A stretch of 64,000 nt of DNA, from the sequence record LC788705.1; one strand, given 5' to 3'. Under the pieces are notes generated by a model that worked only from the letters and a program-made list of their open reading frames with translations, made no database searches and was not told the origin of the DNA. Below are positions 2,748-48,683 of the stretch, one piece after another; position 1 is the stretch's first letter; every line of letters starts with the position of its first letter. The position numbers were made by a program, and so were the translations under genes. Source of the DNA: Escherichia coli phage NG_A1.

Positions 2748-3083
2748 ATGAGTACTGAAAATAGAGTTATAGACTTAGTGATAGATGAGAAAGTACCTTA
2801 TGGTCTAATGATGCAATTCTTAGATGTTGATGATAGTACTTATCCACCTACAAATACCCCTGTTAACTTAACGGGGTATTCTCTAAGGGGTACTATAAAG
2901 GCCGGGCTTGATGAGAATGCGGAAACTTTGGCATCTTTTACTACTAAAATTATTGATGCTGCTCAAGGTGCCATAGCTATAAGTTTACCTGTAGAGGCGG
3001 TAGATAATATTGGTGAAAAAGCTACCAAAGAGAGAGAGATAAGTATAACCCTCGCCAACGTTTTGCAGGATACTATGATATAA
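2748..3083 (+). CDS. Small tail-associated protein (possible collar/Ig-like protein)
   Basis: 111-aa ORF tightly packed between tail-tip and fibre genes; no catalytic motif. Confidence 0.4.
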
Positions 3084-3171
3084 TTATGACACGAGATGTC
3101 ATAGGATCAGCTATTAGCTCTTTTCGTATAATGGAGGGTAAAGTATTTATCAGTGATGGGGTAACTAGATA

Positions 3172-5226
3172 ATGGCAATAACTACTAAGATTATTGTACA
3201 ACAAATATTAAATATTGATGATACTAAAGCTACTGCTAGTAAATTTCCTAGATACACAGTAACTCTTGGAAATTCTATTAGCTCTATTACTGCTAATGAG
3301 TTAGTATCCTCTATAGAGGCCGCTGCTAAATCTGCTGCGGCTGCAAAAGATTCTGAAATAGCTGCTAAAACCTCAGAACTTAATGCTAAGAATTCGGAGC
3401 AGGAAGCTGCTATTTCTGCCGGGGCTTCAGAAGCTTCTGCTACTCAGTCTGCTACATCTGCTACTCAATCTGCTGCATCAGCTGATAAATCTGCAGAATC
3501 AGCCGCAGCAGCTAAAGTATCCGAGACTAATGCGAAGGCTAGTGAAACTAATGCTGCAGGATCTGCAACTTCTGCCAACCAATCTGTAACTACTATTCAA
3601 GGGCTTAAATCAGATGTTGAACAATTAAAATCTGATACCCAGGCCATTAAAAATAGTGCTGTAACAGAGACAGCAGCTTTAAAAGCAGATGTTGAGCAAT
3701 TAAAAACAGATACACAAGGTATTAAGGATAGCACGGTATCTGAGACAACAACTTTAAAAAACCAAGCTGCAACTTCTGCAACTAGTGCTGCTAATTCTGC
3801 TACTGAAGCAGGAAAACAAGCTACTAGTGCTGCCAATAGTGCTAATACTGCTAAAACTGAAGCCGACCGTTCAAAAACTGAGGCTGATAGATCAGAAGCT
3901 GCTGCTAATTCTACCCCCGACATTCAACCTCTTCCAGATGTATGGATACCGTTTAATGATTCTCTAGATATGATCACCGGCTTTGCACCAGGCTATAAAA
4001 AAATAACAGTTGGTGATGAGGAAATAACACTGCCTAGCGACAAGATTGTTAGCTTTACTCGTGCATCAACTGCGACCTATATCAATAAGTCCGGTATATT
4101 GACCATTGCTGAAGTTGACGAACCGCGATTTGAACGTGAAGGTTTGCTGATTGAAGGACAAAGAACTAACCTGCTAATCAATTCAACTGATCCGACTAAA
4201 TGGAACAAGTCATCAAATATGATCTTAGATAGATCAGGTGTAGATGATTTCGGATTCCAGTACGCAAAATTTACATTAAAACCAGAAATGGTAGGGCAAA
4301 CTTCAGCGATTAACATAGTAACCGTTTCCGGCAGCAGAGGTTTTGATGTAACAGGAAATGAAAAGTATGTAACCATATCATGCAGGGCGCAAAGTGGGAC
4401 TCCAAATTTAAGATGCCGATTACGATTTGAAAACTACGATGGATCTGCTTATACATTTTTGGGTGATGCTTACGTAAATCTGACAGATTTATCAATTGAA
4501 AAAACTGGCGGCGCTGCAAATCGTATTACTGCAAGGGCTGTTAAAGATGAAGCAAGCAAATGGATTTTCTTTGAGGCAACAATTAAAGCACTTGATACAG
4601 AAAATATGATCGGTGCAATGGTGCATTATGCACCAGCAAAAGGGGGAGGTACTGGTGTAGATGATTATATTTATATTGCGACCCCTCAAGTTGAAGGTGG
4701 GGCATGTGCTTCATCCTTTATTATTACAGAAGCAACTCCAGTGACAAGGGCTAGTGATATGGTTACAATGCCAATCAAAAACAACCTTTACAATTTGCCG
4801 TTTACAGTACTTGTGGAAGCTAATAAAAACTGGAGTATAACGCCAAATGCTGCGCCTCGTGTTTTCGATACTAGAGGTCATCAATCTGGTGCGGCAATTA
4901 TTCTTGCTTTCGGATCTGCCGAAGGCGATAATGATGGATTCCCTTATTGCGATATAGGTAAATCAAACAGAAGGGTTTACGAGAATGCAAAACTAAAAAA
5001 GATGATTATGGGAATGAGAGTAAAGAGTGATTACAATAATTGCTGTGTAAGTAATGCCAGAATATCAAGCGAAACAAAAACGGAATGGAGATACATACAA
5101 TCAACGGCTACTATAAGGATTGGAGGACAAACAAATACTGGAGAACGACATTTATTTGGCCATATCCGAAACTTTAGAATCTGGCATAAGGAACTAACTG
5201 ATAGACAAATGAAGGAGTATGTATGA
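3172..5226 (+). CDS. L-shaped tail fibre protein (LtfA-like) with Ala/Ser/Thr-rich repetitive shaft
   Basis: 684 aa; N-terminal low-complexity region with tandem ~20-aa repeats (SDVEQLKSDTQAIKNSAVTETAALKADVEQLKTDTQGIK); beta-rich C-terminal domain; context. Confidence 0.6.
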   Translation: MAITTKIIVQQILNIDDTKATASKFPRYTVTLGNSISSITANELVSSIEAAAKSAAAAKDSEIAAKTSELNAKNSEQEAAISAGASEASATQSATSATQSAASADKSAESAAAAKVSETNAKASETNAAGSATSANQSVTTIQGLKSDVEQLKSDTQAIKNSAVTETAALKADVEQLKTDTQGIKDSTVSETTTLKNQAATSATSAANSATEAGKQATSAANSANTAKTEADRSKTEADRSEAAANSTPDIQPLPDVWIPFNDSLDMITGFAPGYKKITVGDEEITLPSDKIVSFTRASTATYINKSGILTIAEVDEPRFEREGLLIEGQRTNLLINSTDPTKWNKSSNMILDRSGVDDFGFQYAKFTLKPEMVGQTSAINIVTVSGSRGFDVTGNEKYVTISCRAQSGTPNLRCRLRFENYDGSAYTFLGDAYVNLTDLSIEKTGGAANRITARAVKDEASKWIFFEATIKALDTENMIGAMVHYAPAKGGGTGVDDYIYIATPQVEGGACASSFIITEATPVTRASDMVTMPIKNNLYNLPFTVLVEANKNWSITPNAAPRVFDTRGHQSGAAIILAFGSAEGDNDGFPYCDIGKSNRRVYENAKLKKMIMGMRVKSDYNNCCVSNARISSETKTEWRYIQSTATIRIGGQTNTGERHLFGHIRNFRIWHKELTDRQMKEYV

Positions 5227-5501
5227 GAGATATAATCCTAAAGTTCACAGATAAATCAACATATAAAGATTTTCTCATTCAAATAGGGTGGGATACTAAT
5301 GAAACTTTGCAAAACCAAATAATGCTTGATGAAATTGGCTATACTTATACTGAAATCTCTCCGCTAGGCGATGAGGAGCCTAGATGCATCCGTAATGAAG
5401 GGTATTATGTTAATGTAAGGATTCTTGATGAATCCTTTACTTACGAATACTTCGAGCCTTTTATAGTTCAGCTAGAACAGCCTCTTAGAGTATGGGCATA
5501 A
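5223..5501 (+). CDS. Hypothetical protein between tail fibre genes
   Basis: 92-aa ORF, start overlaps upstream stop; no recognisable motif. Confidence 0.4.
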   Translation: MRDIILKFTDKSTYKDFLIQIGWDTNETLQNQIMLDEIGYTYTEISPLGDEEPRCIRNEGYYVNVRILDESFTYEYFEPFIVQLEQPLRVWA

Positions 5502-5510
5502 GGTTTTATA

Positions 5511-6122
5511 ATGGTAACTAAAACAGTAATTCCTACGGATATTACAAAACTTAAAAATGAGTCACTTAACAAGAATAATAACTTAAGTGACTTAGCAGAC
5601 CGTGCAGCAGCATGGCTAAATGTGCGTCCTATTGGGTCCACCCCTCTTGCGGGGGACCCTGTTGGGGACTACGATGCTGCAACCAAACGTTGGGTAGAGA
5701 ATAAGATTAACACTGGTACAGTCGGCCCCACTATGAATGGTGTTATGAACTACGGCGTTGGTGATTTCCACCTTCGAGATAGTCGTGCATATATTCAACC
5801 ATACGAAGTCGTTTCTGACGGACAGCTTCTTAATAGGGCTGACTGGCCTGAACTTTGGGCGTATGCACAAATGGTTGGGGCTATAGATGATTCAGTTTGG
5901 TTAGGAGATAAATTCCAGCGCGGTAAGTACTCATCAGGTAATGGAACAACAACCTTTCGTGTTCCAGATAAGAATGGGGTGCAGGAGGGATCAATACGCG
6001 CTCTTTATGGCCGTGGAGATGGTGGGAATAGTGGTGCAAATGGGCAACTGTTCGAATCCGCTGCGCCTAATATTACAGGTTTTTCACCACATATGCCTCT
6101 CAAACCTATGCCCAGGCATTAG
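5511..6122 (+). CDS. Tail fibre protein, N-terminal part with phage tail-collar domain (frame continues in -1 frame)
   Basis: Collar-domain signature (SDGQLLNRADWPELWAY...TTFRVPDKNGVQEGSIRALYGRGDGG); stops at TAG 6120-6122 while the -1 frame is open from 6071 to 7240. Confidence 0.55.
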   Translation: MVTKTVIPTDITKLKNESLNKNNNLSDLADRAAAWLNVRPIGSTPLAGDPVGDYDAATKRWVENKINTGTVGPTMNGVMNYGVGDFHLRDSRAYIQPYEVVSDGQLLNRADWPELWAYAQMVGAIDDSVWLGDKFQRGKYSSGNGTTTFRVPDKNGVQEGSIRALYGRGDGGNSGANGQLFESAAPNITGFSPHMPLKPMPRH

Positions 6123-6334
6123 GACATACAGGTGGTTGCTTTAGTGCAAACAATAATGCGTTTCCTGACGGAAGAGGTGACGGAATCGCTCCAGGGTCTA
6201 CAGCTCTTGCTGGACGTTATAATACCTGCGACTTCAATGCCTCAATATCAAGTCCGATTTACGGGGCATCAACAGATGAGATTCTTACACGAAACTTTGT
6301 CGGCGTCTGGGTAATCCGTGCTTCTGGTGGGTTC

Positions 6335-7240
6335 GTGGCAGCAAATACATCATGGAGTGTTATTAACGCTGATAAAACAACCCCCGATTCAGGTGTTGTT
6401 GTTTCTGGTGGTAGTGTTAAATCTGAATATAAATCTCCCAGTGCAAGTGTAACAGCGGAACTAAAATCAAGTAAAGTAATTAATGGTGCATGGGGTGTTA
6501 GCTTAACTATAACAGATGATAGAGGGATCCCTGTAAGCATTAAGTATGACAGTAATGGTCAGTTTTCAACATCTCATAGGCCATCTGGAGTCGGTACTGG
6601 GAGTTCCTATACTCATTGCGCTTATCGCGCGCCAGACTGGTGGAATAACACAGCATATAGTGCCTTCGTACCAATTCTTGGAGGTGGTAGCGGTAATTCA
6701 CTAAAGAACTATAGATCTTTTGCTTGTTTTGGACAAATATCTTATCCTGATTCTAGTAATAGTTATCCTAGAGCTGCAATTGCTCAAGTAAGGGATTGGG
6801 CACTACCAGATGGTGAACAAGGTAACGGCAAGAGTATTACCGTGTTTACGTTTATTGATAATTCATTTGACCTTCAATATGGGTACAACGATGGTTCGCT
6901 AAACTATATTTTTTCAAAATCTCCAATTTGTGATGAAAGATTAAAGAAAAATATTGAATCCATTGATACTAATATTGCAATAAGTAATATTAAGCAGATG
7001 TCATATAAATCATACATCTATAAAAATGACGAGAATGAACAGGTGCGCCGTGGTTTTATAGCTCAGGATTTACAGAAAATAGATCCCCAATATGTACGGG
7101 AATATGGAGATCCTGGAAGAGAGAAAACGTTGGCCATTGATGAAAACGTTATGTTGCTTGATTCAGTTGCTGCGGTTAAGTGGCTTATTAATAAAGTTGA
7201 GGAGTTGCAAGAAGAAATAAATGTATTGAAAGCTAAGTAA
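6335..7240 (+). CDS. Tail fibre C-terminal part with intramolecular chaperone / autoproteolytic (S74-like) domain; reading frame open from 6071
   Basis: C-terminus DERLKKNIESI...GFIAQDLQKIDPQYV matches the intramolecular chaperone domain of phage fibres; coding-like conserved sequence upstream of first ATG. Confidence 0.55.
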   Translation: MAANTSWSVINADKTTPDSGVVVSGGSVKSEYKSPSASVTAELKSSKVINGAWGVSLTITDDRGIPVSIKYDSNGQFSTSHRPSGVGTGSSYTHCAYRAPDWWNNTAYSAFVPILGGGSGNSLKNYRSFACFGQISYPDSSNSYPRAAIAQVRDWALPDGEQGNGKSITVFTFIDNSFDLQYGYNDGSLNYIFSKSPICDERLKKNIESIDTNIAISNIKQMSYKSYIYKNDENEQVRRGFIAQDLQKIDPQYVREYGDPGREKTLAIDENVMLLDSVAAVKWLINKVEELQEEINVLKAK

Positions 7241-7243
7241 AAG

Positions 7244-7277
7244 AAAACCCCAGAGGGATATCCCTCTGGGGTTTATT
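7244..7277. terminator. Bidirectional rho-independent terminator between convergent tail and dUTPase genes
   Basis: 10-bp perfect stem CCCCAGAGGG/CCCTCTGGGG with ATAT loop, flanked by A-run upstream and T-run downstream. Confidence 0.8.
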
Positions 7278-48069: not shown

Positions 48070-48240
48070 ATGAAATCAGTTGTAATTATTGGTGTTAATA
48101 CTCGCGGTATTCGTACTACGAAAACTGTTAAAACTTCCAACGTTGCTGAGATCACTACGAACCCTAAAAAGTTTGATTTCGCCAAAGTCTCAGCAGTTAT
48201 GACAGAACAATCTTTTAACCAAGCGTTAGGAATGAAATAA
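48070..48240 (+). CDS. Hypothetical small protein (56 aa)
   Basis: Below ORF-track cut-off; GAGGGG RBS; stop overlaps next ATG (TAATG). Confidence 0.4.
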   Translation: MKSVVIIGVNTRGIRTTKTVKTSNVAEITTNPKKFDFAKVSAVMTEQSFNQALGMK

Positions 48241-48683
48241 TGGAAGAGGATATTTTAGATGTTTTGCGTAGAGCTTTGCAGGATTCTAAGTTTAATGGTT
48301 CTGATAAAGAAGTCGCTAAAAGCTATCAGACCATAATCGGGGATCTTCAGCGTATTAATAAAGATTTCATCACTTCTGAACAATTTGTGTCTTATCTCAA
48401 AGCTCAACTAAAAAGCATTAACCAGATGAAAGCTAAACTTCATGGTCAAGATCTTGATAGTTATAGCTTGCAGTCCGCTCAGTATGAATACATTCTAAAT
48501 AAGTGGTTGCAGGAGTATCTGCCCTCTCAGTTATCTGATACTGAGATTCGTAAATACTTTGCAGAATTAGTTAAGCTAAACCCTGGAATTACAAAAGGTA
48601 TGCTGATGAAAGCGATCAAGGAAGAATTTCCTGGGCGTTATGATGGTGGTACTGCTGCTCAGATTGCTGGCGAATTTAATTAA
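48240..48683 (+). CDS. Hypothetical protein
   Basis: 147-aa ORF. Confidence 0.5.
   Translation: MEEDILDVLRRALQDSKFNGSDKEVAKSYQTIIGDLQRINKDFITSEQFVSYLKAQLKSINQMKAKLHGQDLDSYSLQSAQYEYILNKWLQEYLPSQLSDTEIRKYFAELVKLNPGITKGMLMKAIKEEFPGRYDGGTAAQIAGEFN

What the first reader, a model, noticed from the sequence alone, without database searches (positions are those of the whole stretch)
6071..6122. Tail-fibre gene broken by a -1 frame change at a T5 run: programmed frameshift, phase variation or pseudogene
The tail-collar-domain ORF (5511-6122) stops at TAG 6120, but the -1 frame is open from 6071 and continues with conserved-looking fibre sequence into the C-terminal intramolecular chaperone domain (to 7240). 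The overlap contains GGTTTTTC (6078-6085), where tRNA-Phe can re-pair in the -1 frame. The first ATG in the downstream frame is at 6335, so about 260 nt of coding-like sequence would otherwise be untranslated.
Basis: seen in the sequence. Interest (0 to 1): 0.5.

Follow-up and report, generated by a model that had tools for sequence, protein, structure and literature searches.

The report
Frameshift-broken side tail fibre gene
A T5-like phage's side-fibre gene has lost one T from a run of six, which makes it an ordinary inactivating mutation (or, less likely, a base-calling error) in a fibre system that phages often lose in the laboratory, not a programmed frameshift.

Summary
ORF 5511..6122 (203 aa) stops at TAG 6120, the -1 frame is open from 6071 to TAA 7240, and the switch lies at T5 (6080-6084). 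The interpretation narrows to one option.

- **One base is missing.** Five independent close orthologs have T6 here and an uninterrupted 1731-nt, 576-aa gene. More distant orthologs are also intact and have no T run. Adding one T gives a protein 98% identical, without gaps, to an intact ortholog.
- **No recoding signals.** There is no canonical slippery heptamer, no downstream RNA structure (z = 0.00) and no conservation of the split.
- **Source and gene.** The window is Escherichia coli phage NG_A1. The gene is the LtfB-like branch of the lateral tail fibre.
- **A second hit.** The only other frame-broken gene in the 64 kb is the fibre collar gene ltfC, with (AG)4->(AG)5 at 3029-3038.
- **The pattern recurs.** Sister isolate KS_S14 has G7->G6 in its ltfB. 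VSe12, a metagenome genome, PMBT29 and a Logan contig carry similar lesions.

Published work shows that these fibres are dispensable and rapidly lost on rough laboratory hosts. The best reading is a genuine slipped-strand loss-of-function mutation, as in lambda PaPa stf. Sequencing error is the main rival. Interest is low.

The parts
5511..6122 (+). 5' piece of the LtfB-like lateral tail fibre gene. It is 203 aa, of which residues 1-191 are native and the last 12 are out of frame. GenBank annotates it as NGA1_0450, hypothetical protein.
   Evidence: matches DT57C LtfB and LtfA
6080..6084 (+). T5 run, the site of the 1-nt deletion; orthologs have T6.
6071..7240 (+). 3' part of the same gene in the -1 frame, encoding native residues 192-576. 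GenBank annotates only 6335..7240 (GTG start, 301 aa) as NGA1_0460.
6929..7096 (+). Peptidase_S74 intramolecular chaperone domain (residues 474-529 of the repaired protein). It begins with CDERLKK, with Cys where the family usually has Ser.
7245..7274 (.). Bidirectional intrinsic terminator hairpin that closes the fibre operon.
2748..3172 (+). ltfC, the collar protein that attaches the lateral fibres. It is 425 nt instead of 423 and frameshifted. The annotated product is 111 aa (2748..3083, NGA1_0420).
3029..3038 (+). (AG)5 tract in ltfC; the in-frame allele has (AG)4.
3172..5226 (+). ltfA-like proximal lateral tail fibre gene, 684 aa, an intact ORF.
5223..5501 (+). Conserved 92-aa ORF between ltfA and the ltfB-like gene, function unknown.

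Best explanation
The gene is the distal or branch lateral tail fibre gene (LtfB-like, normally 576 aa) of the T5-like phage NG_A1. It has lost one T from an ancestral T6 run through ordinary replication slippage. Translation therefore ends 12 codons later and gives a 203-aa fragment. That fragment lacks the receptor-binding part and the C-terminal S74 chaperone, so no functional fibre branch is made. I consider it most likely a genuine mutation fixed while the phage was isolated or propagated on a host where lateral fibres are useless or costly. The fibre collar gene ltfC in the same genome is independently frameshifted, so this phage probably displays no lateral fibres at all. Shown here: the missing base, the intact state of all orthologs, the second lesion, and the recurrence in other genomes. 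Inferred: that the lesion is in the phage rather than in the assembly, and that selection on a rough host fixed it.
For: (1) T5 stands against T6 in VSe12, EC100, OLXE01000031, ERR10009606 and ERR13332365, all of which otherwise read as 1731-nt ORFs at this point. (2) The 3' part differs from the intact ERR10009606 gene at only 3 of 386 codons. Against other orthologs its changes are mostly synonymous (52:15, 67:14, 47:17). The break is therefore very recent in a gene that was under purifying selection. (3) Across 162 Lindwurm ORF queries with hits in the window, only ltfC and this gene change frame. The fibre module is about 7% of the window, so two random hits would both land there with probability about 0.005. 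(4) The ltfC lesion is a dinucleotide expansion, which is not a typical base-calling error. The same (AG)5 occurs on a different haplotype in Logan ERR13992119 (94.4% identity, 7 SNPs within ltfC), and (AG)3 occurs in PMBT29. (5) Sister isolate KS_S14, from the same depositors, has G7->G6 as the only indel in 10.4 kb that is 99.93% identical to mar004NP2. That indel lies in its ltfB. (6) ltfB is also broken in VSe12 at three homopolymers and in a metagenome-assembled genome by A4->A5. (7) Literature: about 30% of DT571/2 clones grown on E. coli C600 had spontaneously lost LTF function. An ltfB opal mutant shows no LTFs by EM, and LTFs are dispensable on rough strains (PMC4728585). LtfC is essential for LTF attachment (PMC10713586).
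Against: No reads are available, so an assembly under-call of a T6 run cannot be excluded. A T6->T5 miscall is the classic homopolymer error. Two lesions in one pathway are more than loss of function requires, and the second would be neutral unless each lesion gives its own advantage. The isolation and propagation host of NG_A1 is unknown to me. Three frameshifts in VSe12's ltfB look more like poor local sequence quality than biology, so homopolymers in this gene may be error-prone in some pipelines.
Confidence: 0.65

Rival explanations
1. Sequencing or assembly artefact: the phage has T6 and an intact gene, and the deposited consensus under-called the homopolymer.
For: The lesion is a 1-nt deletion in a homopolymer, and the 3' part is otherwise almost identical to an intact gene. 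KS_S14, from the same depositors, also has a 1-nt homopolymer deletion in its ltfB. VSe12 carries three homopolymer shifts in the same gene.
Against: The window has 269 runs of at least 5 nt and 44 of at least 6 nt, yet only this one breaks a gene. The other lesion is a dinucleotide expansion that is seen independently elsewhere. In KS_S14 the only indel in 10.4 kb of near-identity falls in ltfB. Random errors have no reason to target the fibre module (p about 0.005 for the window).
Confidence: 0.22
2. Mutational on/off switching: short repeats in the fibre module (T6 in ltfB, (AG)4 in ltfC) act as slippage hot spots. Populations would then always contain fibre-less and fibred variants, revertants would be selected on O-antigen hosts, and the state seen here would be one reversible phase.
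For: The ltfC tract is found with 3, 4 and 5 units in independent genomes, and (AG)5 arose on two different haplotypes. Frameshifts at homopolymers recur in ltfB orthologs, including an uncultured metagenome genome. [quoted passage not shown]
Against: The tracts are short. ltfB has no excess of homopolymers (4.05 per kb against 4.20 per kb for the window), and dinucleotide repeats are fewer than a Markov model expects. The tracts are not conserved: DT57C encodes the same K-E-R-D as AAA GAA CGT GAT, and L6jm and I14 lack the T run. All six IMG/VR contigs with the tract have (AG)4. The window alone has T5. Ordinary selection for loss explains the data.
Confidence: 0.08
3. Programmed -1 ribosomal frameshifting or transcriptional slippage at the T run makes both the 203-aa and the full-length protein by design.
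For: tRNA-Phe on UUU (6081-6083) can re-pair perfectly on 6080-6082, and a -1 slip would give exactly the ortholog sequence ...ITGFFTTYASQ.... Low-level leakiness is therefore plausible.
Against: No ortholog shares the split arrangement. There is no X XXY YYZ heptamer in frame. The next codon, TCA, is not re-pairable, and there is no downstream structure (z = 0.00). Five T are too few for efficient RNA polymerase slippage (general knowledge). The state is derived from T6.
Confidence: 0.03

Closest known systems
Lambda PaPa stf frameshift (Hendrix & Duda 1992, as cited in PMC12617516)
   Same: A frameshift mutation in the side tail fibre gene of a laboratory phage prevents fibre synthesis and assembly. 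The fibres speed adsorption but are not needed on laboratory hosts. That the lesion is a single-base one which splits the gene into two ORFs is from my own recollection.
   Different: This is a different phage family and a different fibre protein. Here the original stock is not available to show the intact ancestor. In NG_A1 a second gene of the fibre module is also hit.
Spontaneous LTF-less mutants of T5-like phages DT57C and DT571/2 (Golomidova et al. 2016, PMC4728585)
   Same: It is the same module (ltfC-ltfA-ltfB). The fibres are dispensable on rough E. coli and are lost frequently during propagation. An ltfB null mutant lacks visible LTFs.
   Different: Those mutants were characterised by phenotype or were engineered (amber or opal). 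The lesions here are natural slippage frameshifts. The NG_A1 locus is the AKFV33-like variant, with a shorter LtfA plus a 92-aa ORF.
ltfC split into T5.135 and T5.136 in the T5 reference genome AY543070 / NC_005859
   Same: The collar gene is 425 nt instead of 423, with the extra 2 nt at a dinucleotide repeat. Three other T5 records have 423 nt. Ayala et al. call it a frame shift error (PMC10713586).
   Different: It is at a different site, a (TC)n repeat near codon 45, and is regarded as a sequencing error rather than a mutation.
Hypermutable poly-G tracts in receptor-binding genes of Campylobacter phages (from my own knowledge, not checked here)
   Same: Repeat-length frameshifts switch phage receptor-binding proteins on and off.
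   Different: Those tracts are long (about 9 or more G), conserved and variable within populations. Here the tracts are 4-6 units, are not conserved, and have not been shown to vary within a population.

Membership tests
Programmed -1 ribosomal frameshift site | Slippery heptamer X XXY YYZ in the upstream reading frame | tested here: not met
   The in-frame codons are GGT TTT TCA (6078-6086). Only single-tRNA P-site re-pairing on U UUU is possible.
Programmed -1 ribosomal frameshift site | Stimulatory RNA structure a few nucleotides downstream | tested here: not met
   The fold of 6078-6180 has MFE -23.5 kcal/mol against a shuffle mean of -23.5, z = 0.00.
Programmed -1 ribosomal frameshift site | The two-frame arrangement is conserved in orthologs | tested here: not met
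   All orthologs examined are single ORFs of about 557-587 aa. Nearly all of the 120 best homolog clusters are full length.
Programmed -1 ribosomal frameshift site | Measured production of the trans-frame protein | not testable with these tools
   This needs a reporter assay or virion proteomics.
Phase-variable (contingency) repeat locus | A long, hypermutable simple-sequence tract | tested here: not met
   The tracts are T5/T6 and (AG)4/5. No run of 8 or more exists in the window, and ltfB run density equals the window average.
Phase-variable (contingency) repeat locus | Length polymorphism at the same tract among close relatives | tested here: inconclusive
   T run: only the window deviates among six tract-bearing sequences. 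ltfC (AG)n: 3, 4 and 5 units occur in independent genomes.
Phase-variable (contingency) repeat locus | The tract is maintained against synonymous alternatives | tested here: not met
   L6jm and I14 lack the T run. DT57C, T5, VSe12 and Lindwurm lack a pure AG tract.
Phase-variable (contingency) repeat locus | Reversible switching within a population | not testable with these tools
   This needs deep sequencing or fluctuation tests.
LtfB-type branch lateral tail fibre of T5-like phages | Position after ltfC and ltfA and before dut | tested here: met
   The gene order matches DT57C, VSe12, EC100 and L6jm.
LtfB-type branch lateral tail fibre of T5-like phages | Sequence homology to DT57C LtfB | tested here: met
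   59% identity over 311 aa, E = 5e-113, plus the C-terminal domain. It also matches DT57C LtfA residues 526-822 in PDB 8hqz.
LtfB-type branch lateral tail fibre of T5-like phages | C-terminal Peptidase_S74 intramolecular chaperone | tested here: met
   PF13884, E = 3.7e-14, 53 bits against a cut-off of 22.
LtfB-type branch lateral tail fibre of T5-like phages | Intact reading frame | tested here: not met
   A 1-nt deletion at 6080-6084.
Laboratory-acquired side-fibre loss (lambda PaPa type) | A small indel splits the fibre gene relative to wild relatives | tested here: met
Laboratory-acquired side-fibre loss (lambda PaPa type) | The ancestral stock carried the intact gene and the lesion arose in culture | not testable with these tools
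   No reads and no isolation history for NG_A1 are available.

The most novel reading that the evidence does not exclude
Short repeats in the lateral-fibre module of one allele group of T5-like phages, (AG)4 in ltfC together with homopolymers in ltfB, would be recurrent and reversible slippage hot spots. They would keep fibred and fibre-less variants in every population. That would be a bet-hedging switch between fast adsorption to O-antigen hosts and efficient growth on unshielded hosts. It would also explain the very high rate of LTF loss reported for DT571/2.
Probability: 0.1. Interest if true: 0.55.

Novelty: new member of a known kind. Interest (0 to 1): 0.22.

Why it matters
For annotation, NGA1_0450 and NGA1_0460 (and NGA1_0420) should be flagged as fragments of frameshifted ltfB and ltfC, not as independent hypothetical proteins. 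For biology, NG_A1 as sequenced probably lacks lateral tail fibres. Its host range on O-antigen-bearing strains would then be narrower than its intact relatives suggest, which matters if it is considered for typing or therapy. More generally, lesions at short repeats recur in this module across independent isolates: NG_A1, KS_S14, VSe12, PMBT29, a metagenome genome and a Logan contig. Deposited T5-like genomes therefore often represent fibre-defective laboratory variants.

Tried and rejected
- **Conserved programmed frameshift.** Rejected after comparing 14 or more orthologs and 120 homolog clusters.
- **Stimulatory RNA structure downstream.** None found.
- **Internal promoter or terminator between the two pieces.** None found.
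- **Genome-wide homopolymer error signature in the window.** Not found; only two frame breaks.
- **The same test on sister phage KS_S14 against mar004NP2.** One indel in 10.4 kb of near-identity, and it lies in ltfB.
- **Repeat enrichment in the fibre genes, as expected for a contingency locus.** Not found.
- **Other sequences carrying T5 at this site.** Pattern scans of IMG/VR and the metagenome collection each found one match, both T6 (VSe12 and OLXE01000031). The GTDB genome scan found no match. The exact 203-aa product exists only in the NG_A1 record.
- **More (AG)n variants in IMG/VR.** All six contigs have (AG)4.
- **The idea that the window was BF23.** Rejected, because BF23 has a single Ltf.
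- **A paper describing NG_A1 or KS_S14.** None found.
- **Structure prediction.** Not run, because it would not bear on the verdict.

Full report
**What is there.** The window is a T5-like (Tequintavirus) genome. Exact protein look-ups identify it as Escherichia coli phage NG_A1. The 111-aa, 684-aa, 92-aa, 203-aa and 301-aa products of 2748-7240 are GenBank BEU75659-BEU75663, from a record of 101,950 nt. ORF 5511..6122 (203 aa) ends at TAG 6120-6122. The -1 frame has a stop at 6068-6070 and is then open to TAA 7238-7240. GGTTTTTC lies at 6078-6085. Two details of the finding need correcting. The start at 6335 is GTG, not ATG. The Pfam Collar match is below threshold, at 17.3 bits against 24. 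The Peptidase_S74 chaperone domain at residues 474-529 of the repaired protein is secure.

**What the gene is.** The locus order is pb4, ltfC, ltfA, a 92-aa ORF, this gene, then dut on the other strand, as in other T5-like phages. The repaired protein is 59% identical over 311 residues to DT57C LtfB (E = 5e-113). It also matches residues 526-822 of DT57C LtfA in PDB 8hqz, and it falls in PHROG tail-fibre families. It is therefore the LtfB-like distal or branch lateral tail fibre protein.

**The break is one missing T.** Orthologs in EC100, L6jm, I14, YJin-2024a, Stokescottia, Es2, AKFV33, IrisVonRoten, Lindwurm and mar004NP2 are single ORFs of 557-589 aa. So are those in a metagenome contig and two Logan assemblies. 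Region 5511..7240 is 1730 nt against 1731 nt in the closest orthologs.
- DNA alignment puts a single gap in the T run. VSe12, EC100, OLXE01000031, ERR10009606 and ERR13332365 all read GGTTTTTTC.
- L6jm and I14 have no T run at that position.
- Adding one T gives a protein 567/576 identical to P0001 with no gaps, and residues 156-482 are identical across the junction.
- Downstream of the break the window differs from the ERR10009606 gene at only 3 codons. Against other orthologs the changes are mostly synonymous. The 3' part was therefore a selected coding sequence until very recently.

**Not programmed.** The in-frame codons GGT TTT TCA do not form an X XXY YYZ heptamer. Only P-site re-pairing of tRNA-Phe is possible. 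The next 100 nt fold exactly as well as shuffles (z = 0.00). No promoter-like or terminator-like site separates the pieces, and a strong bidirectional terminator follows the gene at 7245-7274. No ortholog shares the split. A rare -1 slip would give the native sequence, so trace read-through cannot be excluded, but nothing suggests design.

**Error or mutation?** I looked for other frame breaks.
- Of 162 ORF queries from phage Lindwurm with hits in the window, only two change frame: this gene and ltfC.
- ltfC is 425 nt instead of 423 because (AG)4 has become (AG)5 at 3029-3038. It is otherwise identical to EC100.
- The window has 269 homopolymers of at least 5 nt and 44 of at least 6 nt, so a pipeline prone to homopolymer errors should have broken more genes.
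- The fibre module is about 7% of the window, so two random hits would both fall there with p about 0.005.
- A dinucleotide expansion is not a typical base-calling error.
- The identical (AG)5 product occurs on a Logan contig (ERR13992119) that is only 94.4% identical to the window and differs at 7 sites within ltfC. This implies an independent event.
- PMBT29 has (AG)3, which also breaks the frame.

**The same pattern elsewhere.**
- KS_S14, a sister isolate from the same depositors, has its ltfB split. Over 10.4 kb that is 99.93% identical to mar004NP2, the only indel is G7->G6 in ltfB. Its ltfA is also 717 nt shorter.
- VSe12's ltfB carries three homopolymer shifts (C4->C5, C5->C4, T6->T5). 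Among 147 ORF queries with hits there, the only other frame changes are in one 189-aa gene and one 50-aa ORF.
- A metagenome-assembled genome, present in two assemblies, has A4->A5 in its ltfB.
- The T5 reference genome has ltfC with +2 nt at a (TC)n repeat, whereas three other T5 records are in frame.

**Published biology.**
- LTFs of T5-like phages bind O-antigen and are dispensable on rough laboratory strains.
- About 30% of DT571/2 clones grown on C600 had spontaneously lost LTF function.
- An ltfB opal mutant shows no LTFs by EM (PMC4728585).
- LtfC forms the dodecameric collar that is essential for LTF attachment (PMC10713586).
- Laboratory lambda carries a frameshift in stf that abolishes its side fibres (PMC12617516).

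**Conclusion.** The most likely account (about 0.65) is a genuine slipped-strand deletion that inactivates ltfB in a phage that has also lost ltfC. On this account NG_A1 is a fibre-less variant of the kind that is readily selected in culture. A consensus error at the homopolymer remains the main rival (about 0.22), because no reads are available. An evolved repeat switch is unlikely (about 0.08). The tracts are short, are not enriched and are not conserved: DT57C encodes the same K-E-R-D without an AG tract, and all six IMG/VR contigs with the tract have (AG)4. The recurrence at ltfC (AG)n is nevertheless worth a population-level test. Programmed recoding is very unlikely (about 0.03). The finding is a new instance of a well-known phenomenon. 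Its practical value is a corrected annotation and a caution about the host range of the deposited phage.

Noticed in passing
window 2748-3172 (tract 3029-3038): The fibre collar gene ltfC is frameshifted by (AG)4->(AG)5. The same tract has 5 units on a different haplotype in Logan ERR13992119 (L029) and 3 units in Salmonella phage PMBT29 (L017). All other copies seen have 4 units or an interrupted tract.
   Followed up: yes
L030 3612-5380 and L032/L033 (phage KS_S14 against mar004NP2): Sister isolate KS_S14, from the same depositors (sewage, Shinjuku), has its ltfB broken by G7->G6. That is the only indel in 10.4 kb of 99.93% identity to mar004NP2. Its ltfA is 717 nt shorter than in mar004NP2.
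   Followed up: yes
L001 3112-4841 (Salmonella phage VSe12): VSe12's ltfB carries three homopolymer frameshifts (C4->C5, C5->C4, T6->T5 relative to the window), and RefSeq annotates two fragments. Only one other sizeable gene in 58 kb of that genome changes frame.
   Followed up: partly
L019/L020 3501-5235 (ENA metagenome assemblies ERZ28617017 and ERZ27244415): A metagenome-assembled T5-like genome has the orthologous gene broken by A4->A5 at the position matching window 6467-6470. The lesion therefore also appears in an assembly that did not come from a cultured isolate.
   Followed up: partly
L018 2056-2480 (T5 NC_005859 / AY543070): In the T5 reference genome ltfC is split into T5.135 and T5.136 by 2 extra nt at a (TC)n repeat. 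T5 records AY692264, AY587007 and AY303687 have the in-frame 423-nt gene.
   Followed up: partly
window 6929-6931: The S74 chaperone motif reads CDERLKK, with Cys where the family consensus and other T5-like fibres have Ser (SDxRxK). The Cys is shared by six orthologs with the same C-terminal module.
   Followed up: no
window 48240-48683: A 147-aa protein ends 37 residues earlier than its 184-aa Lindwurm ortholog. The sequence after that point diverges, with several indels. This is probably natural C-terminal variation rather than a frameshift.
   Followed up: no
proteins P0225 (254 aa) and P0226 (539 aa): Two further Logan/ENA orthologs begin at internal positions (after KSSK, and at residue 38) on long contigs. 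This suggests more broken copies of this gene. Their DNA could not be fetched.
   Followed up: no
L033 18923-19596 against L032 19663-20337: A homing-endonuclease-like gene is one ORF in KS_S14 but two overlapping CDSs in mar004NP2. The difference is a single-base indel (ACACCACATT against ACA-CACATT).
   Followed up: no
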